Source: Adineta vaga (Eukaryota > Animalia > Rotifera). Taken from it: a stretch of 64,000 nucleotides of DNA. The translations under genes were made by a program, and so were the position numbers. The DNA lies in NCBI GenBank assembly GCA_021613535.1, contig CP075497.1, positions 9,948,585-10,012,584 on the forward strand. Direction: 5' to 3'. Under the pieces are notes generated by a model. The model did no database searches. It had not been told where the DNA came from and saw only the letters and a list, made by a program, of their open reading frames with translations. Each line of letters starts with the position of its first letter. The stretch's first letter is position 1. Below, piece after piece: positions 9,924 through 57,662 of the stretch.

Positions 9924-9961
9924 TTCTTTTTGTTCAATGTTCAAAACTGAAGAACAAAAAC
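9433..9961 (-). CDS. Putative first coding exon of the Shroom-like gene. Candidate ATG at 9921-9923 (MRFAEIKIDDKTILLDEKK...), then polyQ.
   Basis: Acceptor gtttttttttctctatctctag|G at 9961 suggests an upstream 5'UTR or spliced-leader acceptor. Donor TCG|gtatgtaataaaag at 9433. The ORF-track 'M' at 9944 is really a TTG. Confidence 0.4.
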
Positions 9962-15346: not shown

Positions 15347-17101
15347 TTCGTATTTATTTTTCTTTTCGTTTCTTTGAGGGTAACAACAAGCGAGAATCTT
15401 ATAATGACATAAAACAAATTCTTAGAATTCTTTTCTAAGTATATTTTTGTTTATGACGATGTAAAGTCAGGTAGAGACAAGTATCATCGGATATTTATTC
15501 AAGTCTTTACTAAGAGCAATAGAGAATATCATTTCTAGAATATTAAAACAAACATATTTGAAGATATCAAGAATGTAGACTTTAACAAGAACATGATATA
15601 AACACGTTCAAGTTTAATGAATAACAACAGATTTTTCTCTCTGGTTTATATCTTCTATGACATGTAGTTAAAGAAAATCTGTGTTGTGCACTATGGTGAA
15701 AAGGATTGTATATGATTCAGATATGTTCGAAAAGATGTTGATCGATCCTGTTGTTCTCTTACAGTCTTGCCAGACATTGATTAGCATATATTTGAATTTT
15801 AATAAGTTTTTAATTCATATTGAAAACTTTCTTATTTTCTATTATTCATGTCATCAAAATTTTTTTGTGTTTTTCTTTACATATCCGATGTTCCTTATTA
15901 TATTTGCATGAGAGGTCGTTGGATTTATTAGTTATTATTGACAAAATAGTATTTAATCAATAAGACAATCAAAGCGTACAGATTGGAAATGATAAGAGAA
16001 GAAATCTTTACGAATAGATAGTATTTTCTTTCATTGTTAATGAAAACAAATCATTGAATTCAATTTTGATGATTAAATAACAAAAAACCTGGCATTTGAA
16101 GAGCTTTATCTACATATGAATTTGAAAATTATACGCGTGAATTCAACATTCCATTCATAGCATTTGACACCCGCGCACTTTTTTTAATTTCTTTCGTTCT
16201 TCTTTATCGTATATCTTGCTTTTGAAAAATGGCAACCATTTCAGCAATGGGTTATTTTATATCATAGTTTTTCTTCTTTTCTCTTCTCTTTAATGCTCGA
16301 TTTTATACGTATGAAAGAATGTTGTTCGAGTTTTTCGAGAAACGAAAGAAACGAAGAGAGAGTGAGAGAAGAAGAACAGACAAGCACGGTTGATGTCTCT
16401 TAATAACAACCATGTGTAGGCATTATTACATCCATAAAAACAGCTGATCTATAGACTATCTTATCAGTACGGTAGTAGTATAGTACTATAAAAATGCAGA
16501 AATAGTCTTCTTCACCATCATTCGGTTTTATCGTATTGTATTCAGCAAACAACAGTATTGGTTTAGAGACCTCGACTATCAAATGTCAAAGAAAAGAGTA
16601 CTCAAAAACGATAGGTGACAGATTGTGCACACAGTTATAACACGAGATTGAAAGAATCAATAAAGGCAGGCTGCAAAAGACACACTACGAGTAAGGAGAG
16701 GAAGCGAGAAAGAGAGAGAAAGAGAGAGAAAAGCGATTAAGCTTTCGACAAACTATAATATCATTATTTTAGATTCAAATAGACATAAAATATTTTTATA
16801 CACTTTCAAGGTTGGATATAATAAGAAATGATCGCTTGACTTATTACTAAAAGTAGCTATTGTGTATTTAGTTTTTCTCACAATAACAAATAGCAATAAC
16901 AACAACAACAACAGGTAATCATTTTTTCTTCTCACGTCTGAATAACAACGGTTTATTTTTTCCTTTCTTTCACTTGTTTTTCTACCTCTTATGCGTCATT
17001 TGATTGGAAAAACATTGTAACATATGACTCAAATTGCTTTAGTCATTACCCATTTTTGTTTGATTGCTTTTAAGTATTGCATCTACTTTTTTTCTTCCTA
17101 G

Positions 17102-18104
17102 TTTTACATTCATCAAAATACCACGTTCACTTAATTATTCACGTGACGAAATCGAAGCGCTTTTCAAGCGCGAAGGTCTCGATCAACGATTTCGTTTGAG
17201 TTCTACACATGATCGAAAAACTGGTTCAACATGTCAAGTCTATTATGCACATGATCTATCACAATCTGATCAACGACTCGTGGCATTAAAGATAATCCGT
17301 ACTGATTTTATTGATAGCTTCGTTTCATATGATGATTTATGCAATTTACAACGAACAAAAGATTGGTTTTATAAACCAAAAGATGTTATTTACAATCGTC
17401 GTTTTCCAAATTTCGATAAATACATTCCAATTGAACAGTACATTGGTGAATTGGGACGTCTTTGTCCTAATTTACCAATATCACGATGTATTGAAAATGG
17501 TTCAAGACATTTAAAAACATATGATGGATATTTAATTGCTTTTGAATATGTTCATGGTCGAACAGTATGGGAAAATCTAGTTCGTACTGATTTTACTTAT
17601 CTAAATGAAGAACAAGCATGTTGTTTTGTACGATTATTTATTGAACAACTTCTAATTCTCTTAAAACATCATATTATTCATCGTGATTTAAATACTTGTC
17701 AAAATTATTATTATAGATTTTATGATGAAATTCGAGCACCACCCTCCAGATACGAACATTGGTCATCTGGTGAAGATGGTGAAGATGGCTATTCCAGTAT
17801 GAGTGGAGATAGTCGACAATCATCGTTAGATGATTTAGTATCGTTATCATCTTCATCATCATTAACATTTATTGATTTTGGTTGGTCAATATGTACAGCT
17901 GATTCAGATGATGATCGACATGAAGTTTTACTTCAAACACTTCAAAGCCTCTTTGAACGTACACCACGTATTATTCAATTATTTGGTGGTATAAATTATT
18001 GGAATTTTCGACGAACAATAGAAAATCGACAGATTGGTCTCAAACAATTATTAAATCATCCATGGTTAAAAACAAATGAAAATGAATTTCAATCAACCTG
18101 GTAA
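17102..18104 (+). CDS. Divergent protein-kinase-like domain (probable pseudokinase). Terminal exon. The 5' coding exon(s) have not been located.
   Basis: Acceptor ctactttttttcttcctag at 17087-17101. Kinase landmarks are VALKII (beta3 Lys), a degenerate Gly-loop, HRDLN (catalytic loop, Lys replaced by Asn), IDFGWS (DFG) and a C-lobe ending HPWL. A ~45-aa acidic/Ser-rich insert lies between the catalytic loop and DFG. There is no ATG before the kinase core, so upstream exons are required. Confidence 0.55.
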
Positions 18105-18568: not shown

Positions 18569-19387
18569 TTATCTACAAGAATCTAAAGAAATTGGATCGT
18601 AGATTAATAAACGATTCGGATCATTACATTGTATCACAATTCGAGAAAATGAAGGTATAATAACGATGGATTTTGGTTGATGAATATGACAAATTGTTAG
18701 AAGAAGTTTGTCAAGTGATTGCCAGAGAAGACGATCATCGAATGCATCAGCAATAAGCCATAGTTTTGTATTAAATCGAGTTATAGATGTACCCCCAATA
18801 GCAAAACGTCGAATAGAAAATAAAGTTCGATCAAGATATTCTAATTTCCCCGTATGTGTTGAAACAAAATATTGATCATCAAATTCGATATCTTCACAAA
18901 CATGATCAAGACGTTTTTGACGAAGATATTTTAATGTCTTCATATCGTATAATTTCAATGTTCGAGAATCAACACAAGCAATTGTAGTTGAATTGCATGC
19001 AATTCGACATTTATTTTTATCTTTATCAATAATTAAATTATTCGTAAATTGTTCATGTTCTAAATTGTAAGCAAATAATTGTCCATTGGAAATAATTAAA
19101 AATTCATTTCGTTGTATACACCAAACAAAATCATCAATTGAAGAAGTTAAATCAAGCAATTCAATAGAACGAATTAATTGAAAATTAGTATTTTCAATTC
19201 GACATAATTCTAAAATATTTTTCATATTATGGTTATAAATCATTGCAAGTTCATTTCGGGGATAAGGAAGATATGCCATACCACAATACATATAAGAAGG
19301 TTCAAGTGGAATAGAAAATGTTTCGGTTGTAGGATAATTCGATTGATCAAGTTGTTCATGACTATTGATCGACTCAGATGATGTCAT
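18569..19387 (-). CDS. Hypothetical protein, single exon, 272 aa. Possible F-box-like N-terminal segment followed by a beta-rich domain.
   Basis: Uninterrupted ORF with ATG. The N-terminus YLPYPRNELAMIYNHNMKNILELCRIENTNFQLIRSIE loosely fits the F-box pattern. No confident family assignment. Confidence 0.45.
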   Translation of the reverse strand: MTSSESINSHEQLDQSNYPTTETFSIPLEPSYMYCGMAYLPYPRNELAMIYNHNMKNILELCRIENTNFQLIRSIELLDLTSSIDDFVWCIQRNEFLIISNGQLFAYNLEHEQFTNNLIIDKDKNKCRIACNSTTIACVDSRTLKLYDMKTLKYLRQKRLDHVCEDIEFDDQYFVSTHTGKLEYLDRTLFSIRRFAIGGTSITRFNTKLWLIADAFDDRLLWQSLDKLLLTICHIHQPKSIVIIPSFSRIVIQCNDPNRLLIYDPISLDSCR

Positions 19388-19832: not shown

Positions 19833-20657
19833 TTAAACTGGAATGGACCAAACAAGATAGGATAATTGATGCGTTTGTTGATTAATATTTTGTCGTGATC
19901 GTTCGGTTAATTTTGGACATTGAGTAAAACCAATAGTTTTTAAATTTGGACAATGTTTGAGCAAATAAAGAAAACCATCATCAGTAATTTCTCTACACAT
20001 TTTCAAATTAATTTCATTTAATGTATAATGAAAAGTGGATTGTCCAATTGACATCAATGATTCATCTGTAATACGTGTTTGTGTTAATGCTAATGATCGA
20101 AGATGAGTTATTTGTTGAAGAGCAATAATACCTTGATCAGATATTTGTAAACAACCTGATAAATCAAGTTCTATTAAACGTAAACAATATCTTCCGATCG
20201 CAATAACACTTTCATCTGTTATTTGTGAACAATTTTGTAAACGAATTTTTCTTAAAGATGGAAATTGTTGAACGAACTGTACCAAGCCGTAATCAGTTAT
20301 ATTCGGACTACGTAAATGAAGAACCAATGGATTCAATACGGATGTTGTTGTCGAAACATCTTGACTAGATTGAAGACGTTTCCGTTCAACCTGTGCTGTT
20401 AATGAACAACGTGCCATAATTATCAATGCTTGATCAGTTATATTTGTACAATCACGAAAATCGAATGTACGTGTCCGACAATTGAGTAAAAGTGATAGAT
20501 TATCATCATTTAATAAACCACGATGTGAAAGTAAAGTAAATAAACGTGCTTTAAGATTTGCAGGTAATACATTCAATGTTGATGCTTGTGTTGATAAAAT
20601 GATATTGAAATGATTAACAATTGCATATTCGCATATGACAACTAATTTAGATGCCAT
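19833..20657 (-). CDS. AMN1-like leucine-rich-repeat protein (FBXL-type cysteine-containing LRRs). Single exon, 274 aa.
   Basis: Repeated ...C..ITD..L..L...CP.L..L.L..C..ITD... units (e.g. CSQITDESVIAIGRYCLRLIELDLSGCLQISDQGIIAL). Length and C-terminus are comparable to the AMN1 homolog. Confidence 0.6.
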   Translation of the reverse strand: MASKLVVICEYAIVNHFNIILSTQASTLNVLPANLKARLFTLLSHRGLLNDDNLSLLLNCRTRTFDFRDCTNITDQALIIMARCSLTAQVERKRLQSSQDVSTTTSVLNPLVLHLRSPNITDYGLVQFVQQFPSLRKIRLQNCSQITDESVIAIGRYCLRLIELDLSGCLQISDQGIIALQQITHLRSLALTQTRITDESLMSIGQSTFHYTLNEINLKMCREITDDGFLYLLKHCPNLKTIGFTQCPKLTERSRQNINQQTHQLSYLVWSIPV

Positions 20658-29788: not shown

Positions 29789-30769
29789 TTATTCAAATGT
29801 TATTCTATCTAATCCAAGATTTTGTTCATCTCGATATGCCCATGAAAAGCAATAATGTTCAAATAATTGTTCCAATAATTCCTTTTCATCTAGACCTCCA
29901 TCAATATGTTCAATTCGTTGTTTTTCATTATGATTTAAATAATTTTTATAATATTCATTCAATGTAATACATTGTGCAGATGTAAAATTAGCATTAATAT
30001 ATCTTTGACATTGACTAGTTTTGTTTTCACATGAATCCATTCCTACTAAATGACATGAACGTTGTTTTAAATTTTCAATCATAATCTGTCCGAATCGATC
30101 ATTCATATTGATTTGTTCGAAATTTACAAATAAACAAGATTGAGCAAATGTTTGTGTTAAATATTTTAATAAATTCGATGAATGTTCAGAAGACATATAG
30201 ATTAAAACACATTCACTAATAAATAATGTTGGTAGTGTAAAATCAAGAATTTGATGTTCAGAAAGATATTTCAATTGATGATCTAATTGAGTTAAATCAC
30301 GGAGATCAGCGGGTAAGATTGTATATGAAGATGAATGAAAACCACATGGAATTTTCAATGATTGATTTTCTTGTGGAAATTTCTTTTGAAGAAATGGTAA
30401 ACGACGAATTTTTGTCGATTTTATCTCTGTTAATTCTTCAAAATCTACGTCAACAAAATGTTTAAATTTAAGATTTTCATTATCTAATAAATAGAATATT
30501 GTTGTATCAAAACCACATCCAAGATTGATAATTTGACATTGATTATTTGTTAATTTAATAAATTTTTCAATAAGATAACGAAGTCCATGTACACGAACAT
30601 AATAACCAAGACTTATTTCTGGTGTTCGACGTTCATGATGTGATGAACCGGTCAATATTTTTAAATATGGATCTTTCCAATATCCACGTTCAATTGCATA
30701 TAATTTACATTGACATGCATCGTTATTTGTTTCGATTATATTACTATTATCAACTGCTGTTATATTCAT
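29789..30769 (-). CDS. LCMT1: Leucine carboxyl methyltransferase 1 (PP2A C-subunit methyltransferase). Single exon, 326 aa.
   Basis: DACQCKLYAIERGYWKDPYLK...RTPEISLGYYVRVHGLRYLIEKFIK...CQIINLGCGFDTTIFYL...ISECVLIYM gives the LCMT fold with the SAM-binding GCGFDT motif. Confidence 0.8.
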   Translation of the reverse strand: MNITAVDNSNIIETNNDACQCKLYAIERGYWKDPYLKILTGSSHHERRTPEISLGYYVRVHGLRYLIEKFIKLTNNQCQIINLGCGFDTTIFYLLDNENLKFKHFVDVDFEELTEIKSTKIRRLPFLQKKFPQENQSLKIPCGFHSSSYTILPADLRDLTQLDHQLKYLSEHQILDFTLPTLFISECVLIYMSSEHSSNLLKYLTQTFAQSCLFVNFEQINMNDRFGQIMIENLKQRSCHLVGMDSCENKTSQCQRYINANFTSAQCITLNEYYKNYLNHNEKQRIEHIDGGLDEKELLEQLFEHYCFSWAYRDEQNLGLDRITFE

Positions 30770-32817
30770 ATTACGAAACAGCTAGAAACTTAAGATAAGA
30801 AAAAGAAAGTATACTACTAATGACGTTAGACGAAATAGATTACTCACATTGTTTAGATTAATATGAGTAATATTGTTACGTTTAAAAAAGTTACTTTTTC
30901 GTCCGGTCAAACAGAGTTATCCGATTCGAACATGTTTCATCTGATGAGATATAGTTAGTGACATCTGTAGATTTTTCTTTGAATACTGAAGACGTACAAA
31001 AATGAAAAATTATTTTATTTCTTTTTTATTTTAAATAGAAATTTATTGGAATAAATAGATGAGAAAATTTTTTATACATTTTCTTAATTATCCTTCAGAT
31101 GACGTTGATTTACGTTGATACAATGCGTGATCGTTGATGGATTATGATTGAAAAACGTATTAATCTGAGAAATATTACATGAGTGAACAGACCAGATTTC
31201 TCCCTTTGAAACTTTTAAAATACATCGTTCTTCTTCAATGAAATAATAATATATCGATTTATAGAAAACAATAAACACGTTATTTTCAACTGAAAAAGAG
31301 TTTGTCATTTAATTGAGATGCACTCGAGTCAAAGTTTATAATACAACATTGAACACTACATCAAAACAATAGAAATAATGATCACTTGAAATAGAAAGAC
31401 GTTTCCGATTTATTTCCATATAATGAAAATTATTTCTTCTGATACAATCATTTCTTGTTTCCTTTCAACATCATGGATGAGAGTATAGAGATAAAGGTGT
31501 GGGTGAATGTAATTAGCGAGAAATCCTCAAAATTCTAAGTACGATCATGCATACAATTAGAATATGAAGATTCGTATTCTATTTAACACTATTATTAATC
31601 AAAATATATCAGATGAAATAAAGATTCATCGACGACATTGTTAAATTCCTCATTTTTCTCCTTACTATAGGAAAATATGAGAAAAATTATGCTTGATACT
31701 TGATCTCTCGATATTACTCGTTTTGACAGATCAAATTTAACTTTTTTTTGTAATTAGAAATACATCATTGCGTAATATAGCATCAAAATATCTGGATCGA
31801 ATTACTCTAATCATGTTTCCAAAGAAAGTTGATAGTTTCCTATAATAACATCTAATAGATATCTATGACGTATTAGAATATCACCACCAAACTATTTTGA
31901 GAAAAATTTTCATCATTCTATTTCGAAGAATATTTATTTGACAAAATCATCAATCTTGAGAAATTTTAATGTTCAGTTAGTTTCATATGTTATAACTTCT
32001 GAACAAATTCAATCATCGAAATTTAGCATTGACATTTGATACACATAAAAAGAGAATGGTAGGTATTTTAAGAACATCTTTTCATAATCTCAGAATTCAT
32101 CAAAAGGATTTATGGTTTCAAAGACATGCATTTCTACGGAAAAAATAGAAGAGTTTGAAATTATTTCTTTTAAAAATTAATAACCCTTTTGAATCTTCGG
32201 ATATTTTCATCAGATAAAGTTGTATAGTAGAAAAACAATCAATGCAGCAGCAACTACTACTTAATTATTTTACTCGGCAAGATTCTTTGTTCGAAATTCA
32301 TTTGAAACATCATATAATATTTAATATTGATAATGGGTATGATATCTTTAGAATCGCAACTTCTATTAAAGAAGCCACGGCACAATGTTCTCTTTACATT
32401 GATACTTTCTGCGCAATTACTTTTGAAAGATTCTTCAGTGTCCTCTCATTTTATTGACGTCATAGAAACATGAGAAGTTCGCTTAGTTTATACTTTCATC
32501 TCAAGAGATTTAATTATACTCAACAATAAAATACAAGCATCGGTTATACTTCTATCATGTGAATGTCACACAAAAAGAAGAAGTACTTTCACTAAAAGAT
32601 TTGATTTGTTTTCTTTTGAATAGTTAAAAAATCTTTTATCACGTATTTGTTTTCATCAAACAAGAGAATACTTGATGGTACCGGAGAGAAGGAATTAATT
32701 TGTACCCTCAAATGTAGTTCTTAGTGAGTTTGTCATTGAGAAAAAAAAAGTGTTTTTTAGGTGAAGGAATTTTATTCTTGGTCTTAACTACATCAAAACG
32801 CAATGATGGCGTTGGTG

Positions 32818-32890
32818 ATGAAAATGATGATGATGAAGAAGAAGAAGAAGAAGAAGAAGACGATGATGATGATGATGATGACGATGTTAC
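32818..32890. repeat. (GAA)n followed by (GAT)n trinucleotide microsatellite.
   Basis: gatgatgatgaagaagaagaagaagaagaagaagacgatgatgatgatgatgatgacgatg. Confidence 0.9.
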
Positions 32891-33011
32891 AAATTATTCT
32901 TTTTATGCGTCGTCAAAATAATAGTAATACTGATGAGAAAAAAAATAACTTATTGGCTCCTGTTTTCGTCGATCGAACTTTTATTGAGAAGATAGATTTA
33001 TTCGAATTGAG

Positions 33012-33701
33012 TTATTTCTTGCGACGTCGACCATACTTGAAAATGTACGGTACTTGTTGTTCTTCCATAACTTTTTGTAAAAGCATAGTAAGCCAAGCGC
33101 GCGCAAATGGATTTGTTTCAACCAAAACCTTGAGTGAAGGTGACAGACGTGTTGATTCACTCAATTGACTAAGATTGACAACGCTGTTTGGATCAGATGG
33201 ATCGACTAAAGCTGCTGCGGCGACAGCTGAATTCAAATTGAAATCTGTCGGTAATGTAGGTGGTGCACTGATTGACGGCGAACTGGCTCGTTTTTGTTGT
33301 TTATCTCCTTTAGATTGTTGATATTTTTGTAATAATAATAAGAACTTTCTAGATAATGATTTTGATGGCAATTGCTGAAGATAAAAATCAAATGGCACAT
33401 TGGATTCATGTAAAGACGAACTTAAAGATGATGATGAATCTTGGTAACGATCTTTCATGGTTGAGAATTCGTTGCTTTCGCCTGTCAACATTTCAGAAGT
33501 GTCACCACCTAAATCATAATCGATACTCGGGACGGGATGTTGATGTAAGGGCCTGAGTGGTGAAGATAAATCAGCAGATGGATGATTATGGGTAGAATGA
33601 TGGGTTGAAGATAATTTTGGGAGACCATGTACTGATGTCGTACATAAAAACAATGTTGAAATAAATGTAACAACGAACACGGCCAGAATATCAAATAACA
33701 T
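33012..33701 (-). CDS. Secreted protein with N-terminal signal peptide and several dibasic sites. Possible prohormone-like precursor. Single exon, 229 aa.
   Basis: MLFDILAVFVVTFISTLFLCTTSVHG is a hydrophobic signal peptide. KR/RRRKK sites and the C-terminus ...VPYIFKYGRRRKK* read as Gly plus basic residues (a possible amidation signal). Acceptor ttctttatttcag lies 40 nt upstream of the ATG. Confidence 0.45.
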   Translation of the reverse strand: MLFDILAVFVVTFISTLFLCTTSVHGLPKLSSTHHSTHNHPSADLSSPLRPLHQHPVPSIDYDLGGDTSEMLTGESNEFSTMKDRYQDSSSSLSSSLHESNVPFDFYLQQLPSKSLSRKFLLLLQKYQQSKGDKQQKRASSPSISAPPTLPTDFNLNSAVAAAALVDPSDPNSVVNLSQLSESTRLSPSLKVLVETNPFARAWLTMLLQKVMEEQQVPYIFKYGRRRKK

Positions 33702-36700
33702 GTTTGAAGAAAGGTTGAGGAGGTTAGCAAGTTGTCGGATGTTCTGAAATAAAGAAGAAGAATTTCAAAAAATAAATCTTTCCTCTTTCATATAGTATAT
33801 CAATACATAAATAATATATAGATGTATTTCTTCAGAAAATCATTGCTCAAATGAAGACGTAAGTTACGAGCAAATATACTTTAGATAATGGCGTCCTCAA
33901 GTCATTTCTATTTTTTTTCTAATAAAAAGAGTGACAAGAACATCATATAAAGATCGATGATGATGTTTCGACAAGTTTCTACAAAAGAAGAAGGATTGCA
34001 ACATGAAACTAGTCACCGTTGTTATTTTTTTTATATTTCTTGCATAGCTTTCTTTGTTACACTATTATAATTCTCAGGAGATATCGAGCACAAATGTATG
34101 TATAGATGTCTGCGTATGTAAAAGAGCATGAAAATCAGCAGGAGACTGTTCGTTTGACGTTTGTATGTGACATTAATTGCAATTCTTTTTGTCTTTCTCT
34201 TCTGGTTTTTTTCTCTTCTTTTCGCCTTTCCAATTTATCTCTAATACTATCTTCTATTGAAATCAACTGACAAAAACGAAGAGCATGGCAAACAATTAAC
34301 TTTTATCTCAAGCAATCGCTTACATTTCTATGTTCTATTCATCAATCTCGACGAACTCATATAATATTAAAGAAATCTGAAATCGAATGACATTATGAAA
34401 TCAAATTAGGTGACAAATGAATAAAAAAAACATGCAATCTTAACAATAACATGAAAAAGAAATCAATGATACTAATAGATCTTGTCATTCAACAGTGATG
34501 ACATTAAGATCTCATGTCAAATATCCAACGACAAATCATGGCTTATATTCTATATCTCAATCAAAAAACTTTGCCTTTCTCTTTCTATAAAAGTCAGAAA
34601 ACAAGATTCTAATCTAATAATATTTATTGTATACTCTCAATCTCGAAAATGGCGAAGTAAGGATTAAAGAAAATAAATATACAATTTCCTTCATCTATTT
34701 CACCTACGTAAAAAAAAAGAATTCTTCATCAATAAATGTAGACTTAACGATCGAGTCTAAACAAAAGCTTAATACTAAAGAAAAACTTGCGTCTATATTT
34801 ACCTAACAAACGAACTCATTTACGTGAACAGATTTTCTATCAGGTGAAAAATCCACGTAAATATACAACTAAAGTCTTGTAAATGTTCAATTCTACTCTC
34901 TCACTATGATCATAATTTCAAAAAGAAAACACGAGAAGTCTAACAATAAGTTATTCTGATTTCATAGGAATTAGTAAGGATTACCTTGAAAGAATATTAT
35001 GCTAAAGTATAAGATTTTTTAATATCATGCATACAGTTATATACTATTGTGTTAATAAAACATTTATTGTGATTAACCATACTTTTCATTCATCTGTAGT
35101 ATAATAGAAAAGGCAAAAAAAAAAGGATGATGATGAGATGCATAGAAATGGAACGATTGATTGATTGATTGGTTTTTCCGGAAAGGAAGTAGTAGAGAAG
35201 AAAGAAAGTGTGATATACACAACTCGAAAAGAACTTAGCTGACTCACACGTAACAGTTCAATGTCATAAAATTAATACAGATAGTCAACGCATTAGTTGC
35301 CGATGACGCACAACTTCATAAGGAGAAAAAAAAGAACGCGAATAAATAGATGAAGTTTTGAATTATTCATCGAATGTTTCACAATAATAATGGCAGAGAG
35401 AATTTTAGGTCAATATCCATTTTTTTTTACTTATTAAACAATGACGTAAACACAGAAAAAAGATCCATTGTTTAATATTCATCTACATGTTTAAATTGGT
35501 GAGAAATCTAAATGAAGACGTTTCCTCTACTTATATCATCCTCTTCACTAAAAAACAATCTAACAACTTAGTTTTTCAATAACATTTTGATACTTGCTTT
35601 TTTGAAGATTAACATATTCTAATCAATGTAGAGACGTACTCAATGAAAGTAGGAGAAAAGCAGTGGAATAATTAGCTTTTCTGTTTAGTATCGATGGTAG
35701 AATGGGAGTACTATGAATAATTATTTCCTTCCCACACAATACAAATCTGTCTACATATATATTCATCGATATGATTAAGAAAAAGAAAACCAGTCGATCA
35801 AAGATACGCCCACCTGCTTTTGATATAAAAGAACTGGAATCTGTCAGTTTCTTTTTAATTATTAAAACGAATCGAAGACAATCAAGAATACATAATAGAT
35901 ATAAAGAAAACTAGTATCAATGATCAATACATCATTCATATTTTGAGATGATATGTCATTGAAATTAGAATAAAAAGAAGAAGATAAGAGAAGACTATCG
36001 AAATATTTCAATGAGTAAAAGTCAAAATAGTTCGGAGTAGAAAAAAAATCAAAAGAAAAGACTGACATGTCAACAGTATTATTATCTATGTTTGATTAAA
36101 ATCAAATTCATTTATATCCATCCTAATGAAGAATATATAGTAGGAAATCTAAATTCGAAATTCTTCTCTATATTTCTCTCGTATCAGAACCATGAATTAA
36201 CTTTCTTTTTTTTCACTTCCGTTTCCTCTTTAGTGAAATCTACTGTTAATCTATTCACTTATAATTTCCTGAAGATCTGGAATGAAAAAAAAGATGACAA
36301 AAGGTTTCTTTTCGATAAAAATTTGCTTTCAAAAGGATAAGGAAACTTAATTAAATGTGATATTACTCTACTTTCTACTCACATCATTTTTGACAAACGG
36401 AAAATATGTATTCTTACTTATTTACATATAAATTGTTATCGTATCGTCTTTGTATTTATAAAAAAAATCAATTGAATTTCTAATAAAACGAACAATTACA
36501 ATATCCTTTAAAAGGATTCTTCTTTATGAAAAAAGATTCAAGTGTAAAATTCCTATCCTATCAACGAAATCAAGATATACAACTAAGAGATTATCAAAAC
36601 CTTCGAGCGAGAAAAGGATAAAAATTCTTTTTTTATATTTTCTCATTTGAAATGTCTACTAACCTACGCGTTTTTCTTTAGAACACACGAAGTTCAACTG

Positions 36701-37540
36701 TTTGTTTCCGTTCTCTGTCAAATAGTTGACATAACTTCAAGATATTCAACTGTTTAGCTATAGTATTTTCTACTATCTCTATGTCTTCTATTTTTCTTTT
36801 TTCTTTCCCAGAACATAAATTTTTCTCTCGTCATTTGTTCCTTCCAATCGAATTAGCTTATTAGTTGTTGTTACCATAGCTATCATTGACGTAAGGCAAT
36901 GTTTCTTGCAGTCTTCGATTGAAATCTCCGATTATTGTAGGGATATTATCATCAACAATAATTACTATTCATGACCACAAATATACTTATTTTATTAGAC
37001 AACTTCTATAAATGTCATGATAAATAATAATTTCAAATATAGAAATTTATTTTTAGTTGATATTACTAAACTTTATTCAATTGTTTCCATTCTTGTTATT
37101 TATCAATTATTTAGATATCGACTATTGAAAAGTCGGTATAAAATAATAATAATATCCACTTTAATTACAAAAGATAGATTAGTTCTATTCTTTGATAAAA
37201 TCCATAATATATGATTTCGTCATTTTTATATTCTTTTTGTTTGTTTTAATGCCAGACAGATCAGACCTAATATTAGTAAAGCTGATTCAGGTTTATTATC
37301 TTAAAAGAACGTTTTATCAACAAAATTTCATTCACCGGAAGTAACAAGCATTAGTTCCGAAATTTTCAGAATGTAAAACAAATATAGAAAAGTAGAGGAG
37401 AAAAAAAACCAATCGGAAGTTAATCAGAAGTTGTTTTGATTGGCAAAATTCTAACATTATCGCTTGTGAGATTGTACAGATATCAGAAATTTGCTATTAT
37501 ATCAATCTTTTATTTAATAATACACCAGTTAGAAGAATTC

Positions 37541-37942
37541 CTACTGAACAGAATGAAATGCAACCCATGCAAAAACACCAAGTACAGTTAATATCGTCAA
37601 TACTGTCGTAATTTTGTGTGAGAGACGTTCAGCTGCATTGAATTCTTCTCGTTGAATCATACGACGTAATTGAATTGTTTTATACAGAGCCCAAATGGGT
37701 CCAATAAGAAAAAAACATAAGATCGTAAGAACTAATGCCCATGTGAAATGTACAGCTATGACAGGTGGTTTCAATTTGACGGCATTTTTCGGAAGTTTGG
37801 AAGTTTGTTCTCGTAATGGAGATTTTTTCTTTTGATCTGTATGTGAATGAGATTGAAAACGTTTTGCCTGAAGTTCTTTGGGAGATAATTGAACAGGTGA
37901 TATTCGATTTATAGAATCGAAATTTTCATGTGGCTCTGTCAT
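37541..37942 (-). CDS. Small two-TM membrane protein, CD225/dispanin-like. 133 aa, single exon.
   Basis: Hydrophilic N-terminus, then VIAVHFTWALVLTILCFFLIGPIWALY, a short loop and a second TM TTVLTILTVLGVFAWVAF. The spacing between TM1 and TM2 and the G..A...S pattern resemble IFITM/PRRT/TUSC5. Confidence 0.4.
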   Translation of the reverse strand: MTEPHENFDSINRISPVQLSPKELQAKRFQSHSHTDQKKKSPLREQTSKLPKNAVKLKPPVIAVHFTWALVLTILCFFLIGPIWALYKTIQLRRMIQREEFNAAERLSHKITTVLTILTVLGVFAWVAFHSVQ

Positions 37943-38565: not shown

Positions 38566-52144
<13,579 letters not shown>

Positions 52145-52735: not shown

Positions 52736-55700
52736 TTATTTCAACGATTGTTTTGGTTTACGAATTTGAGGTGTAATTGTTTTCGTTGGAATCATTTGAA
52801 TATTTGATTCAGTTAAAATTCGATCAAGTACTTTTTCAAATTTTGCATCACCAACTTGTTCACCAATATGATATAATTTTAACATGTAATCCGAATGAAA
52901 AACATTACTATTATCCATAAAACGTTTATAATCAGTTTGAAGTAACTAATATTGAAAAGAAAAAGTCAATCGAAATGAAATTGTAACACAAATAACCTAC
53001 TCGAAAATCACTTTCAAGTCGAGCACGTGACGAGAATTCTCGTCGATAACGTTCTTCAGCTAATTTAATTCTAAATATATCAATACATTCGATTTTTTAT
53101 TATCATAGAAATCGTTTTACTTGTTATTTAATTCAGTAATTTCTTCTGCATGTCGTTGATTAATTATGTCGATATTTTGCATATGTTCTTTCGTTAATTC
53201 ACCTCGGAGTTTTTCCAACGCTTTTAATTCTCGTTCAGCATATTCAGCCTATTGAAAAATCACAGTACTGAGACAAGAAATGTGAATGAAATTTTTTTCT
53301 TCTTACATCTTTTTTAGCAATTAATTCTTGAGCAAATCGTTTTTTTTCTTCGAGAAATTCAAGTGCAAGTAATGAACGTAAACGATCTTCAGCTTGTTTT
53401 ACTGCCTGAAACAATGAATAAACGAAATTCATAATACGATTTTTTCAATATGAATTTCTTACAATAGCAAGTTGTTCATTAGCCAATTTCCATTGTCTGG
53501 CTAATGCTTCTTCACATTCAGCTCTCAATCGTTTGATTAATGCTTCTTCTTCGGCGCGATTTTTTTCGCGACGTAAACGTTCAAAATCTGCCATTATATC
53601 ATCAAATTCCTAAGAAAACAAATTCGAATGAATGTTTCTGTTATTCGACTAAAACCAAATTTACCTTTTTTAATCGACGTCGTTCTTCTTCTAATAGTTC
53701 TTTCCAATGTCGTGTGATTTCTTCCGTTTTTAATCGATATTCATTTTCCAATCGTCGTCGTTCAGCGTCAACTAATTGTTGATAAGTTTGTTGAATACGA
53801 CGTTCATTACTAACTTCCATTTGAAATAATAATTCATCACCAATTACTAAAAAAGAGATAATTAATCATAAATTATTCGTTCTTCTCACCATTAAATCAA
53901 GAATAAATCATCTTCAATTCAATCACAACAGATATATTGATAATGATCTTACCTGGAAAAATTTCATTTCTTATTCTAAAACTATGTTAATAGTGATTAA
54001 TATTGTGCATAAAATTAGTTTTTAATCAAAAACAATAAGAAAAAATAACATACCGAGAATATGTTCATGGGTAACTTGTTGAACTAATTCTTCTTTTGGA
54101 TGATAAAATCGATGCGAAACTTTTGTATCAAGTGGTACTGGTGGCCGACGCATTCGAATTGGTAGAAAACATCGTTTTGATCCACCGGTTGTATGTGGTC
54201 GGTCAGTTGAAAATCGAACAGCTTCGTAATGTGCTTGAGACATGTTATTCTATCTACAAAAATGTTCTTCTATTTTTTTAGAGTGCATATCGCACGAGAT
54301 AAAACGTCACTGATTTATGAAAAGAAAAAAAAAAGAAAATAAAGCCTGAGATCTATGAAAATAAACAATGTTTATGGATTCACGAAGGAAACTTGTCGAT
54401 CCGTTTGTTGATCATCATGAATAGAAAATCGACTTGGTTCATATCGATTTTGAAAATATTTATCAATAATACTATTAGCATCTTCAACTTCAATTGTATT
54501 TTTCACACATTTACGAATATCTTCCCAAATATTATCGGAAAATTTCGTTTCTGGATCAACATTTGTTTCTCGTTCTTGTAAAGATTGTCGAGACCAAGCA
54601 TTCCATATACGCATAGTACAATCAAGAGATACTGTAATATATTGTTTTCGTTCGGGAATGAATAAAACATCTCTACAATTACACAAAGAAATTCGAATTC
54701 ATTTTGAGAACATATTTTTCATACCGAATAACATCAGTATGTCCATCATTAGTTTGAACACATGTATAATCATCCATTTCAAAAACTTTTAACGTATCTT
54801 GATTACCAATTAAAATTGCTTTTTGAACATAATCAATTGCAATTGCATGTATACTTCCTCGTGTATTAATTGCTTGAAGTAATTGTCCATCTTTATTCTA
54901 AAAATTATATTGTAAAATATATGATTTTATTAAATGAAAAATCATTTACCCAAATTCGAAATTCTCCATTATCCATTCCTGTCACCCATTCATTTGTAAC
55001 AAAATTCCATTTAATACATGTCACTTCTGAATCTACTCGTGCTTTTAATTCATACATCAATGTCATTTCTGAACCTACAGAGGAAAATTTTCGTACATAA
55101 ACACACATATCACTTCCAGCTGCATAAGCAAAATATTTCAATTGTGGACTATAATCCATATTATGAATATATCCCATTGAAGCTGCTTCTACCATATCAA
55201 CATGTGTCGCATTTGGATTACTGTAAACATTATACAGTAAGTAATGATTTAAATCCCAAATACAAATACGTCGATCCCATCCAGCACTGAGAAGATAAAC
55301 ATTACCAAATGATTTCACATCATCAACAACTACTAATGAAGTGACAGGTTCGGTATGATTACTGAATATTTTAAGTAATGTAAAACCAACAACACGATTA
55401 GCAACTCCACCTTCTTAAATTTCGAAAAACAAAATTTCATAGAATTGACGAGGAAGAAGATTATCATCAATACCTTCTGTATGATTGTTTTCATCAGTAG
55501 ATTCTTCTTTCAATGTTTTTAAAGCTTGTAATGCTTCTAAATCAAATCCCCAAACATAAATATTTTTATCTTCACTAGCAGCTATAATTAAATCTAATTT
55601 TTCGACAAATATTATTCGAAGAATTGATTTTCCTGTTACTGTTTTCGTTAAATCTTTTAATGATTGTGGTTGATTTTGTTTATCTAAATGTTCGTATTGT

Positions 55701-57662
55701 GAAACATAACCACCAATACCACGTTCACGTTCAGCAATTTTTGCTGATGAACGTGAACGAACATAATATGCTGGTAAACGTTCACTAACAGTTTTAATAC
55801 GTTTACCAGATGCTGCTCGTTTCGAATTCGTTGTTGATATCTTTTCATCGTTATCATTCTTTCCTTGTTCATTTGTTTTGTTTTCTTTCTCTTTCACATT
55901 CGTAGTTGTTGTTGCACTTTTTGTTTCACCCAATGAAACAGCTTGAACTAAATATTCACTTATATCTTTTTTGCCATCGAGTTTTAGAAGACGATCTTTC
56001 GAATACATAATTCGATTAGATTGCATTTGTTCCCATTTGAAAACATTTCCTATTGATGAGACAGAAGATAGAGAGAATATTTTTTAATCAGATCTTTTTC
56101 TTAATATATCATCTGTTTAGTGTATCACAAAAAGAAATTATACAACTGTCACACACAAAGTAATTCGTTGAATTTCTACGCTCACCTTCAGTATCTCCTG
56201 TAAACATCTAATTAAGTAATTAGAAGAAGAAAATAGAATTCTGATGAACATGTAAGGAAAAGAGAGAAAGAGGTAATTATCTTACCAGTATCGGTGCTGT
56301 ACTTGTATAACATACATTTTCCAAAGGCGATTTAAGTCTTAAACATGATACACAACCACTATGATACAAATCATTAAGATAAAAAGTTTGAGAAAAGAAG
56401 AAATATGTTTAATAATTACGTTTTTTTATAGTACCATGCAAGAAATTGTTTAGTATTTGTCGAAGCAACAACAATATTCATTTCGGGTAGATATCGAAGA
56501 GAAACAAGACAATAATTTGGTTTATTTTTATCATTATCAGAATGTTTTTCATCAGCATTGAGAAATGTATCTTTTTGAATAGATACAAATTAATTCAAAT
56601 GATATGTAAAGAGATTTATTCTTACCTATAAAACTTGATACTTTCTCACCACTTTTTGGATCATAAACATCAGCATAATGTTGACCAGCAGCTGCGAATT
56701 ATTCATATATAAAATGGGCATAGTTTATTGAAATTTCAAAAACAATATCCTACCAATCCAAACTGTTTTTGTTGCATTTACAAAAGTTAATCCAGTGACT
56801 GCATATGAAAAGTCCGCAAATTTATACAAGGCTTTACCATCTAAACTCCAAACTTTCGCTGTTTTATCAAATGAACCTGTCATTAACCATTCACTATTAT
56901 CGATGGGATTTTTCTGTGCTATAATACATGTTATTCCAGCAGTATGAGCATTAACATTTTTCGATACAATAGGTGGCTTATTAGTTCGACATTCATATAT
57001 AATTAATTGTCCATCAAAACCGACAGAATATAATTTATCAAGCATTAAAATCCCAGTTGTTATATCTTTATGTTCAAATACTATACTCAATGGTGTTTCT
57101 CGAATAACTTGACCATTTGCAGGGTTGGTATCATATTCATGTAATTGAATACCTATTGATTCGCAGAAATCTCATTATTTAGAAAAAGATATCAGATTGA
57201 TATTTTACCGTTTGAAATACCGAAAATAATCTGTTTTAAACGAGAATGATAACAGATAGCGTATACTACCGAACCAATATTAAGTTTATCAATAACAGAA
57301 CCAATTCCTACATATCAAAACAATGTATGAATGGAAAAACTCTTCTTAATATCAATCTACCATTGTATGTGACAATTGTGGAATCATTACCAGCTGAGAA
57401 AAATACTCGAGCAGCAGCAAGTGAACTCAAAGCAGTAACCCAACCTTTATGTTTATAACAATGATGTATACGTTCACCTAAAGCAAATATATTTCTATAA
57501 AAATCTTTCGTACAAAGTTTAATTTTTACCTGTTTCATGATCAAATGTTTCTACCGAACCATCTTCAAAACCAAGAACTACCTCACGTCGTACTGGATTA
57601 CTTCCAATTGCTGTTACTTTGGATTTAATACTTTTAATATCCAAATAAGCCTCTAAAGCCAT
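52736..57662 (-). CDS. WD40-repeat protein with a C-terminal Arg/Glu-rich coiled coil. Multi-exon. CFAP57/WDR65-like ciliary protein is suggested but the identity is not secure.
   Basis: ATG at 57660-57662 (MALEAYLDIKSIKSKVTAIGSNPVRREVVLGFEDGSVETFDHET, donor CAG|gtaaaaatt). WD units such as HKGWVTALS...SAGNDSTIVTYNG and WLMTGSFDKTAKVWSL, plus IIAASEDKNIYVWGF. C-terminal exons give ...RRLENEYRLKTEEITRHWKELLEEERRRLKK / EFDDIMADFERLRREKNRAEEEALIKRLRAE... Stop at 52736. Confidence 0.65.

What the first reader, a model, noticed from the sequence alone, without database searches (positions are those of the whole stretch)
33012..33701. Unannotatable secreted protein with dibasic processing sites and a C-terminal Gly-Arg-Arg-Arg-Lys-Lys: candidate neuropeptide/prohormone precursor
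There is a clear signal peptide. The mature region is Ser/Pro/Leu-rich with KR and RRRKK sites. The extreme C-terminus ...VPYIFKYGRRRKK has the form peptide-Gly-basic, which amidated neuropeptides use. There is no match to a known family by eye, so it may be a lineage-specific bioactive peptide precursor.
Basis: inference. Interest (0 to 1): 0.55.

Follow-up and report, generated by a model that had tools for sequence, protein, structure and literature searches.

The report
Bdelloid rotifer orphan peptide-hormone precursor
This is a real, expressed gene of the bdelloid rotifer Adineta vaga that looks like a precursor for a secreted, C-terminally amidated signalling peptide. It belongs to a previously undescribed family seen so far only in bdelloid rotifers, and neither the peptide nor its receptor has been shown experimentally.

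Summary
The ORF at 33012-33701 (minus strand, 229 aa) is real. It is identical to an Adineta vaga 'hypothetical protein'.

An exhaustive profile search of 1.84 billion proteins found only 24 clusters (at 50% identity). Every named member is a bdelloid rotifer (Adineta, Rotaria, Didymodactylos).

Conservation follows the prohormone pattern. The N-terminal signal-like segment, a Lys-Arg site (70/71 and 69/71), a 38-residue C-terminal block (0.90 identity) and Gly224 (71/71) are conserved. The spacers between them are variable and predicted disordered.

Of 120 homologues, 119 end in -F-K-Y/F-Gly-(2-5 basic)-stop. The two extended products seen in the wider set trace to a read-through TGA or are unresolved.

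Metatranscriptome-like contigs show a spliced mRNA with a poly(A) tail. The gene has a 2.9-kb intron in its 5'UTR.

There is no Pfam or PDB sequence match. Profile comparisons with CRH/DH44/ELH and NPF are negative. NKY matches only over the last 10 columns.

Best reading: an orphan precursor giving a peptide ending ...PYIFKY-NH2. Secretion, cleavage, amidation and neural expression are inferred, not shown. Interest is moderate.

The parts
36664..36729 (-). Exon 1, non-coding 5'UTR. The 5' end is approximate; the 3' end is the splice donor junction (TAG|GTTAGT).
   Evidence: The first 62 nt of mRNA-like contig L005 align to a conserved block here and in A. steineri (L002 about 6817-6872). In both genomes GT follows the block. 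In the mRNA the block joins directly to AACATCC.
33744..36663 (-). 5'UTR intron, 2920 nt, GT...AG (acceptor TTTCAG).
   Evidence: Donor and acceptor were located. Contigs L004 and L005 diverge from the genome exactly at the acceptor.
33702..33743 (-). 5'UTR part of exon 2 (AACATCCGACAACTTGC...CAAAC, then ATG).
   Evidence: Collinear with L001, L004 and L005 and with the A. steineri genome.
33624..33701 (-). Predicted signal peptide, aa 1-26, with predicted cleavage VHG|LP.
   Evidence: Translation. It contains the best Kyte-Doolittle 19-residue window of the protein, 2.45. In 71 sequences, residue -3 is V/L/I/M, residue -1 is G/S/A/T, and +2 is Pro in 64. AlphaFold2 models helix 2-21. SignalP was not available.
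33468..33623 (-). Conserved acidic N-terminal pro-region block, aa 27-78 (...ADLSS.LR.L.H.PVPS.DYDLGGD.SEML.GESNE).
   Evidence: Mean column conservation is 0.76 over 115 sequences. D63, G66, D67 and M71 are nearly invariant. The block is predicted disordered. Its function is unknown.
33294..33467 (-). Variable, low-complexity spacer, aa 79-136. It includes the RK118-119 site (33345-33350), kept in about 59 of 71 members and deleted in short paralogues.
   Evidence: Conservation 0.56. dN is 0.28-0.30. The region varies in length among homologues. pLDDT is below 50.
33288..33293 (-). Lys137-Arg138, predicted dibasic prohormone-convertase site.
   Evidence: K in 70/71 and R in 69/71 diverse members, although both flanks are variable.
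33147..33287 (-). Second variable spacer, aa 139-185. It ends in Arg185, a possible monobasic cleavage site.
   Evidence: Conservation 0.58. Arg185 is present in 66/71 members; the others have P, V or A.
33033..33146 (-). Conserved C-terminal peptide, aa 186-223: LSPSLKVLVETNPFARAWLTMLLQKVMEEQQVPYIFKY. This is the predicted bioactive product, with Tyr223 amidated.
   Evidence: Translation. Conservation is 0.90. L190, W203, L207, F221 and K222 are invariant. dN is 0.03-0.05. AlphaFold2 models a helix-kink-helix at 188-196 and 198-214 with block-mean pLDDT 71-88, followed by an extended tail.
33030..33032 (-). Gly224, predicted amide donor.
   Evidence: Invariant in 71/71 sequences. It is also kept in the most divergent members, whose basic tail shrinks to RK or KK.
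33012..33029 (-). Arg-Arg-Arg-Lys-Lys tail plus the TAA stop. The tail is predicted to be trimmed by a carboxypeptidase.
   Evidence: Translation. Tails in the family: GRRRK 40, GRRRKK 26, GKRRK 1, GRRR 1, GRK 1, GKK 1, plus one that runs on (GRRRKKQLNI...).
32757..33011 (-). 3'UTR, about 255 nt. AATAAA lies at 32770-32775 and the predicted cleavage site is near 32757. It contains an A. vaga-specific (ATC)n(TTC)n expansion at about 32820-32885.
   Evidence: L004 carries an ~85-nt A run straight after ...AATAAAATTCCTTTACCTAAG. That run is absent from the A. vaga and A. steineri genomes. L005 ends at the same base.

Best explanation
The gene encodes a small secreted prohormone of an orphan family known so far only from bdelloid rotifers.

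Proposed mechanism, all steps inferred:
1. The 26-residue signal peptide directs the protein into the ER and is removed after VHG.
2. In the regulated secretory pathway a prohormone convertase cuts after Lys137-Arg138. It may also cut after Arg118-Lys119 and after the single Arg185.
3. A carboxypeptidase trims the C-terminal Arg/Lys run.
4. Peptidylglycine alpha-amidating monooxygenase converts Gly224 into the amide of Tyr223.

The main product would be a long peptide ending ...VPYIFKY-NH2. If Arg185 is used it has 38 residues (about 4.5 kDa). If only KR138 is used it has 85 residues. It consists of a helix-kink-helix followed by a flexible aromatic-amide tail. It presumably acts on a G-protein-coupled receptor, in the way long helix-plus-[R/K]-Y/F-amide peptides do.

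The acidic N-terminal block is probably a sorting or accessory pro-region. It could also be a second product.
For: Shown here:
- The ORF is real and under purifying selection. dN/dS is 0.35-0.49, and dN is lowest in the C-terminal block.
- It is transcribed, spliced across a conserved 2.9-kb 5'UTR intron, and polyadenylated.
- It is a single-coding-exon gene in conserved synteny (Fry, then a CD225-like gene, then this gene) in A. steineri.
- Conservation is mosaic, as in neuropeptide precursors. Values are signal 0.82, N block 0.76, spacers 0.56-0.58, KR 0.98, C-terminal peptide 0.90 and Gly plus basic tail 0.92.
- Gly224 is 71/71, Lys137 70/71 and Arg138 69/71.
- 119 of 120 homologues end in [F/Y]-K-[F/Y]-G-(R/K)2-5 followed by stop. 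The basic tail varies in length (RRRKK, RRRK, RK, KK), while Gly and the aromatic residue stay. This fits an amidation signal better than a fixed basic motif.
- One product that seemed to run on (P0132) is a read-through TGA. The true product ends ...YVFKYGRRRK*.
- AlphaFold2 with 71 sequences finds no globular domain. Only the N-terminal helix and the C-terminal helix-kink-helix are modelled with confidence.
- The region after residue 26 has no Cys and no second hydrophobic segment.
- The C-terminal 10 columns match lophotrochozoan NKY peptides (xxΦ[R/K]YG[R/K]R) at 80% hhalign probability. NPF and CRH controls, which also end in Gly plus basic residues, do not match.

From the literature:
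- Other Adineta neuropeptide precursors listed in bioRxiv 10.1101/2024.07.20.604414 (supplementary Figure S7) have comparable signal peptides and Gly-plus-basic sites.
Against: - No peptide, amidation or secretion has been observed, and no tissue of expression is known.
- SignalP and NeuroPred could not be run.
- The N-terminal hydrophobic segment is unusually well conserved (0.82; Asp4 in 59 of 61 sequences that have the position). It has an acidic rather than basic n-region, and its hydrophobic core of about 16 residues is long. A membrane anchor is therefore not excluded.
- Arg185 lacks the usual upstream basic residue in one of the two paralogue groups, and 5 of 71 members lack it. The N-terminus of the product is therefore uncertain.
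- Three or four basic residues are conserved, more than amidation needs.
- The helix is not significantly amphipathic.
- There is no homology to any peptide with a known receptor.
- From general knowledge: SMIM20/phoenixin shows that an N-terminal hydrophobic segment combined with a C-terminal -F-G-R-K can occur in a membrane protein.
Confidence: 0.68

Rival explanations
1. It is an N-terminally anchored single-pass membrane protein. The hydrophobic segment is not cleaved. The disordered chain and the polybasic C-terminus face the cytosol and act in lipid binding, targeting or retention. The Gly-basic ending is then not an amidation signal.
For: - The N-terminal segment is highly conserved (0.82; dN 0.03-0.05) and Asp4 is almost invariant.
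- The hydrophobic core is about 16 residues, and AlphaFold2 models a confident 20-residue helix.
- Three or four basic residues are conserved at the very end.
- SMIM20/phoenixin is a precedent (general knowledge).
Against: - A polar c-region follows the core. Residue -1 is a small residue (G/S/A/T) in every member that has the position (65/65), residue -3 is an aliphatic one (V/L/I/M) (65/65), and +2 is Pro in 64 of 71 members. This is what signal peptidase needs and an anchor does not.
- Neither flank has the conserved positive charge expected of a type II or type III anchor.
- Invariance of Gly224, together with a basic tail of variable length and an invariant KR between variable spacers, is hard to explain for a cytosolic tail.
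Confidence: 0.12
2. It is a secreted, intrinsically disordered protein with no signalling role, for example a mucus, adhesive, matrix or desiccation-related protein. It would work as a whole chain, and the basic sites would be incidental.
For: - The sequence is Ser/Leu/Pro-rich and low in complexity, and most of it is predicted disordered.
- The family is restricted to bdelloids, which have many lineage-specific stress proteins (general knowledge).
Against: - The low-complexity parts are the least conserved and vary in length. Short paralogues lack them entirely yet keep both ends.
- Selection is concentrated on a 38-residue block, the Gly, and the KR site.
- Only about two paralogous copies per genome are seen for A. 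vaga (P0001, P0112), with no tandem expansion.
Confidence: 0.1
3. It is a precursor of a secreted effector peptide rather than a hormone, that is, an amidated helical antimicrobial or toxin-like peptide.
For: It has a signal peptide, an acidic pro-region, and a C-terminal helical amidated peptide. This is also the architecture of many antimicrobial peptide precursors (general knowledge).
Against: - The predicted peptide has a net charge of only +1 and no significant amphipathic moment (2731 of 5000 shuffles reach the observed value).
- It is extremely conserved across bdelloid genera, unlike fast-evolving immune effectors.
Confidence: 0.05

Closest known systems
Lophotrochozoan neuropeptide KY (NKY-1/NKY-2) precursors. 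Thiel et al. 2021 (PMC8557429) equate the NKY receptor with the sNPF-type receptor.
   Same: - Signal peptide, pro-region, a basic cleavage site, then a single peptide of about 36-44 residues at the extreme C-terminus.
- The peptide ends in hydrophobic-[R/K]-Tyr-Gly-(K / RK / RR / RRR)-stop.
- hhalign aligns the last 10 columns at 80% probability (NKY sequences).
   Different: - The diagnostic NKY cores, FW[RQ]P[LM]G and G[YF]WIWMPAQG (PMC6425005), are absent.
- The N-terminal Lys is absent.
- The middle of the peptide is Gly-rich and unstructured in NKY but helical here.
- The penultimate residue is Lys, not Arg.
- Full precursors align only over the signal peptide (27% probability).
CRH / DH44 / egg-laying hormone family
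   Same: - One amidated peptide of about 36-47 residues, largely helical, at the C-terminus of a longer precursor.
- By eye, the N-terminus (L-S-P-S-L, or P-P-I-S in members P0131 and P0132) recalls PSLSI and PPISLDL.
   Different: - Profile-profile comparison gives 0.2% probability.
- The Pfam scan at E<=10, which includes Pfam's CRF model, returned nothing.
- The C-terminal residue is an aromatic amide after a Lys, not an aliphatic one.
NPY/NPF family
   Same: A long peptide with a helix followed by a flexible tail ending in basic-aromatic-amide.
   Different: - Bdelloids have separate bona fide NPF genes ending ...YYAIIGRPRFG.
- There is no polyproline N-terminus and no RxRF/Y motif.
- hhalign probability is 1.2%.
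SMIM20 / phoenixin (sequence recalled from general knowledge, not tested here)
   Same: An N-terminal hydrophobic segment and a C-terminal aromatic-Gly-Arg-Lys-stop. Whether the hydrophobic segment is a signal peptide or a membrane anchor is the same open question.
   Different: SMIM20 is about 67 aa and has no KR site and no long spacer. No sequence similarity was detected. Rotifer phoenixin is reported as a separate gene in bioRxiv 10.1101/2024.07.20.604414.

Membership tests
Amidated neuropeptide / peptide-hormone precursor (generic class) | N-terminal cleavable signal peptide | tested here: inconclusive
   The n/h/c layout fits. Residues at -3, -1 and +2 are conserved (V/L/I/M, G/S/A/T and P). 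There is only one hydrophobic segment. SignalP was not available. The n-region is acidic and the segment is unusually conserved.
Amidated neuropeptide / peptide-hormone precursor (generic class) | Conserved peptide flanked by basic processing sites, separated by poorly conserved spacers | tested here: met
   Conservation: KR137-138 0.98, spacers 0.56-0.58, C-terminal block 0.90. dN is 0.03-0.05 in the block against 0.28-0.30 in the spacer.
Amidated neuropeptide / peptide-hormone precursor (generic class) | Gly immediately C-terminal to the peptide, followed by basic residue(s) or the stop codon (amidation signal) | tested here: met
   Gly224 is 71/71. Tails are GRRRK, GRRRKK, GRK and GKK, then stop.
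Amidated neuropeptide / peptide-hormone precursor (generic class) | Gene is expressed | tested here: met
   mRNA-like contigs are spliced, and one has a poly(A) tail. The tissue is unknown.
Amidated neuropeptide / peptide-hormone precursor (generic class) | Mature amidated peptide detectable; expression in neurons or endocrine cells; a cognate receptor | not testable with these tools
   This needs peptidomics, in situ hybridisation and receptor assays.
NKY (neuropeptide KY) | Single peptide of about 38-44 aa at the precursor's C-terminus, ending in [R/K]-Y-Gly-basic | tested here: met
   The 38 aa from Leu186 to Tyr223 end in FKY-GRRRKK. hhalign gives 80% probability over the last 10 columns, while the NPF and CRH controls are negative.
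NKY (neuropeptide KY) | Core motif FW[RQ]P[LM]G[YG] (NKY-1) or G[YF]WIWMPAQG (NKY-2), and an N-terminal Lys | tested here: not met
   Neither motif is present in any of the 71 aligned members. The motifs come from PMC6425005 and the sequences.
NKY (neuropeptide KY) | Detectable homology of the precursor beyond the processing motif | tested here: not met
   The full-precursor hhalign aligns only the signal peptides, at 27% probability.
CRH/DH44/ELH | Sequence or profile similarity to the family (Pfam CRF; N-terminal PSLSI/PPISxDL motif followed by a helix) | tested here: not met
   No Pfam hit at E<=10. hhalign probability is 0.2%. PDB profile search has no peptide hit.
NPY/NPF | Polyproline N-terminus, YY..(I/L).GRPRF/Y-amide C-terminus | tested here: not met
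   hhalign probability is 1.2%. Genuine Adineta NPFs are encoded by other genes.

The most novel reading that the evidence does not exclude
This is the founding member of a peptide-hormone family that arose in, or diverged beyond recognition within, the bdelloid rotifer lineage. The hormone would be a roughly 38-residue helix-plus-tail peptide ending in FKY-amide. It could be the missing rotifer ligand of an sNPF/NKY-type or another aromatic-amide-activated GPCR. Alternatively it could belong to a lineage-specific signalling system, tied for example to dormancy or anhydrobiosis. Two retained paralogues (the 229-aa and 160-aa forms in A. vaga), perhaps dating from the ancient genome duplication, would give two related ligands.
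Probability: 0.4. Interest if true: 0.5.

Novelty: new member of a known kind. Interest (0 to 1): 0.38.

Why it matters
Rotifers and other gnathiferans are the least sampled spiralians for neuropeptide signalling. Thiel et al. 2021 call them 'the next frontier'. The HMM-based rotifer survey of 2024 recovered only families already known from arthropods.

A strongly conserved, expressed orphan precursor gives a concrete synthetic peptide to test against orphan bdelloid GPCRs. That peptide is LSPSLKVLVETNPFARAWLTMLLQKVMEEQQVPYIFKY-NH2, or a fragment such as VMEEQQVPYIFKY-NH2. It also gives a marker gene for peptidergic cells in an animal with about 200 neurons.

If the peptide is a derived NKY/sNPF-type ligand, it would help reconstruct the spiralian peptide set. 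If it is truly lineage-specific, it is an example of the birth of a new hormone.

It would not change any general principle.

Tried and rejected
- **Pfam.** Scans of the whole protein and of 26 C-terminal peptides at E<=10 gave nothing relevant.
- **PDB.** A profile search of PDB sequences gave only a chance Arp4 match at E=1.3.
- **CRH/DH44/ELH.** I formed this idea by eye from 'PSL...NP...R..LL' and from 'PPIS' in two divergent members. hhalign rejected it at 0.2% probability.
- **NPF.** Rejected. Real Adineta NPFs exist elsewhere.
- **PTH-like.** I noticed WLxxxLQxV by eye (PTH sequence recalled from memory). I did not pursue it, because protostome PTH-type peptides are PXXXamides/QSGamides (PMC8557429) and this peptide has Pro at -6, not -4. 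No formal test was run.
- **NKY.** Only the terminal processing and aromatic motif matches.
- **Amphipathic-helix claim.** Dropped. The hydrophobic moment is not above shuffles.
- **Literature.** Full-text searches for the peptide strings and for 'KYamide' found nothing relevant. Searches of three supplement sets for the peptide strings also found nothing relevant.
- **Exact-sequence look-ups.** Those for the A. vaga protein and its paralogue P0112 found no record. The A. vaga paralogue's locus was therefore not examined.
- **Taxon of the GC-rich contig.** I tried to name the taxon of the contig carrying divergent member P0132 through its Rieske/cholesterol-7-desaturase neighbour. Only unnamed metagenome hits came back.
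- **Overlapping ORFs.** The plus-strand ORFs 32724-32921 and 32803-33168 are repeat artefacts. They are not conserved in L001.
- **Fold search.** Not run, because the model is mostly low-confidence.

Full report
**What and where**

The window is about 30% G+C and eukaryotic, with no tRNA genes found. The ORF named in the finding lies on the minus strand at 33701..33012. It has an ATG start, 229 codons and a TAA stop. Its product is 100% identical to NCBI 'hypothetical protein I4U23_030398 [Adineta vaga]', so the window comes from the bdelloid rotifer Adineta vaga.

- an N-terminal hydrophobic segment (aa 1-26);
- a Ser/Leu/Pro-rich, Cys-free remainder;
- RK118-119, KR137-138, and the terminal ...VPYIFKY-G-RRRKK-stop.

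**Gene model and expression**

Three short environmental contigs (L001, L004, L005; about 0.9-1.2 kb) each carry one homologue and little else. L004 ends in an ~85-nt A run placed directly after ...AATAAAATTCCTTTACCTAAG. L005 ends at the same base. Neither the A. vaga nor the A. steineri genome has that A run. These contigs are therefore mRNA-derived, and L004 preserves a poly(A) tail.

Upstream, the contigs stop matching the genome exactly at a TTTCAG acceptor 42 nt before the ATG. The 5' 62 nt of L005 instead match a conserved block about 3 kb upstream in both genomes. There the block is followed by GTTAGT (A. vaga) or GTACGT (A. steineri).

The gene therefore has:
- a non-coding exon 1 (about 36729-36664);
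- a 2920-nt 5'UTR intron (36663-33744);
- exon 2 (33743 to about 32757), which holds the whole CDS and a ~255-nt 3'UTR with AATAAA at 32775-32770.

In A. steineri the orthologue is also a single-coding-exon gene of 229 aa with the same neighbours. These are Furry (MOR2-PAG1) and then a CD225-like gene.

**Family and its range**

A word-indexed search found 141 homologues. A profile search that read all 1.84 billion cluster representatives found only 24 clusters, the weakest at 85 bits, and nothing beyond them.

Every member that carries a name is a bdelloid: Adineta vaga, A. ricciae, A. steineri, several Rotaria species, and Didymodactylos carnosus. No monogonont (Brachionus) or non-rotifer protein appeared.

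A. vaga has a second, shorter paralogue (P0112, 160 aa, 45% identity). It lacks the central spacer but keeps both ends.

A few unnamed metagenomic members are more divergent. They end in ...SSIFKYGRRRK...SYVFKYGRRRK...APFKFGRRRK...PYIFKYGRK or ...PYIFKYGKK. One of them, P0132, looked like a 338-aa protein. Translation shows a TGA directly after GRRRK that the gene caller had read through. Its contig is 40-51% G+C. I could not assign it to a taxon.

**Conservation pattern**

Mean column conservation over 115 full-length sequences:

| Region | Conservation |
|---|---|
| Signal region | 0.82 |
| N block, aa 27-78 | 0.76 |
| Spacer, aa 79-136 | 0.56 |
| KR137-138 | 0.98 |
| Spacer, aa 139-178 | 0.58 |
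| aa 186-223 | 0.90 |
| Gly + basic tail | 0.92 |

In 71 diverse sequences, L190, W203, L207, F221, K222 and G224 are invariant. K137 is 70/71, R138 69/71, R185 66/71 and Y223 70/71 (the remaining one is Phe).

The basic tail varies in length from 2 to 5 residues, but the Gly never changes. In 119 of the 120 homologues from the first search the stop codon follows the basic run immediately. The exception, P0087, runs on for eight residues. The wider set adds two more extended products. P0132 is the read-through artefact described above. P0134 was not examined.

Nei-Gojobori estimates among A. vaga, A. steineri and L001 give dN/dS of 0.35-0.49 overall. dN is 0.03-0.05 in the C-terminal block and 0.28-0.30 in the first spacer.

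This mosaic is what neuropeptide precursors show: conserved processing sites, a conserved peptide, and free spacers.

**Structure**

AlphaFold2 with the 71-sequence alignment gives mean pLDDT 57. No globular domain is predicted. The N-terminal helix 2-21 is confident. The C-terminal helix-kink-helix (188-196, Asn-Pro kink, 198-214) has 10-residue block-mean pLDDT of 71-88. The last nine residues are extended. The helix is not significantly amphipathic. This argues against a folded structural or ECM protein. It is compatible with a pro-hormone whose product is a helix plus a flexible aromatic-amide tail.

**Comparison with known families**

- There is no Pfam hit for the protein or for 26 C-terminal peptides at E<=10.
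- There is no meaningful PDB sequence hit with a profile of the C-terminal block.
- By eye the peptide recalled CRH/DH44/ELH, but hhalign against ten family members gave 0.2% probability.
- Against NPF peptides the probability was 1.2%. Adineta has separate, typical NPF genes.
- Against 15 NKY-1/NKY-2 peptides taken from the supplement of Thiel et al. 2021, hhalign gave 80% probability. This covers only the last 10 columns, PYIFKYGRRR against xKxxRYGRx.
- Whole precursors align only over their signal peptides.
- The diagnostic NKY cores (PMC6425005) are absent.

NKY is therefore the closest analogue in architecture and in the terminal motif, but membership is not supported.

**Literature**

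The family is absent from the rotifer neuropeptidomes of the NP-HMMer preprint. It is also absent from the supplements of De Oliveira et al. 2019 and Thiel et al. 2021. Searches for the peptide strings and for 'KYamide' found no neuropeptide paper. Thiel et al. state explicitly that gnathiferan peptides remain poorly sampled.

**Mechanism**

Shown: the ORF, its conservation pattern, its expression and splicing, the lack of a fold, and the lack of known relatives.

Inferred:
1. co-translational ER entry, with signal cleavage after VHG;
2. convertase cleavage after KR138, and perhaps after RK119 and after Arg185;
3. carboxypeptidase removal of RRRKK;
4. amidation of Tyr223 at the expense of Gly224;
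5. release of a peptide ending ...PYIFKY-NH2 that acts on a GPCR.

The N-terminal boundary of the product is uncertain. Arg185 is missing in 5 of 71 members. Lys210 is nearly invariant and sometimes forms KK or KR with position 209. A shorter product, VMEEQQVPYIFKY-NH2, is therefore possible.

**Rivals**

The main alternative is an uncleaved N-terminal membrane anchor with a cytosolic polybasic tail. It draws support from the unusual conservation of the hydrophobic segment and its acidic n-region. The conserved signal-peptidase-type c-region, the invariant Gly with a basic tail of variable length, and the invariant KR all weaken it.

A non-signalling secreted disordered protein fits the selection pattern and the peptide's properties less well. 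So does an antimicrobial-type peptide.

**Verdict**

This is a new, apparently bdelloid-restricted family within a well-known kind of gene, the amidated peptide-hormone precursor. It is a useful lead for rotifer neurobiology and for neuropeptide evolution. It is not a surprise in principle.

Noticed in passing
window 32820-32885 (3'UTR of the gene, minus-strand sense): A. vaga carries a ~60-nt (ATC)n(TTC)n trinucleotide expansion in the 3'UTR. It is absent from A. steineri and from three mRNA-like contigs. The rest of the 3'UTR has strongly conserved blocks: TATCAATAAAAGT, GAGCCAA, CATTTTGAC and AGACCCAGAATAAAATTCCTTTACCTAAG. The plus-strand ORFs 32724-32921 and 32803-33168 are artefacts of the repeat.
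   Followed up: partly
window 33744-36663 and 36664-36729: The ~3.8-kb gap upstream of the CDS that looks intergenic is mostly a 2.9-kb 5'UTR intron. A small conserved non-coding first exon lies about 0.8 kb downstream of the CD225-like gene. The layout is the same in A. steineri.
   Followed up: yes
window 33624-33701 (signal-peptide codons): The signal region is unusually conserved for a signal peptide (0.82; dN 0.03-0.05). An almost invariant Asp sits at position 4. No explanation was found.
   Followed up: partly
L006 10001-11017 (ENA metagenome contig, 40-51% G+C): Family member P0132 was called as 338 aa because a TGA after ...SYVFKYGRRRK was read through. The real product is 137 aa. The contig's G+C is far above that of Adineta and Rotaria, and its taxon is unknown. 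It also carries a Rieske/cholesterol-7-desaturase (Neverland-like) gene about 3.4 kb upstream. A relative of that gene (P0145) is on a contig of the same length as the one holding family member P0090, which hints at conserved linkage.
   Followed up: partly
window 37541-37942 (-) and 42462-49700 (-): The neighbours are a CD225/IFITM-like small membrane protein and exons of a Furry (MOR2-PAG1) homologue. The same order is found in A. steineri.
   Followed up: yes
window 2888-9944 (-): A chain of long Ser/Asn/Thr-rich low-complexity ORFs (200-310 aa each). The one ORF tested had no Pfam match. It is probably one large, disordered multi-exon gene.
   Followed up: no
window 17064-18104 (+): A 346-aa ORF with a kinase-like 'IIHRDLN' motif but no Pfam hit at E<=0.001. 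It could be a divergent kinase or a pseudokinase.
   Followed up: no
window 29789-30769 (-), 19833-20657 (-), 18569-19387 (-), 54905-57090 (-): Ordinary genes: a leucine carboxyl methyltransferase, an LRR protein, a WDR35-like beta-propeller, and WD40-repeat exons.
   Followed up: no
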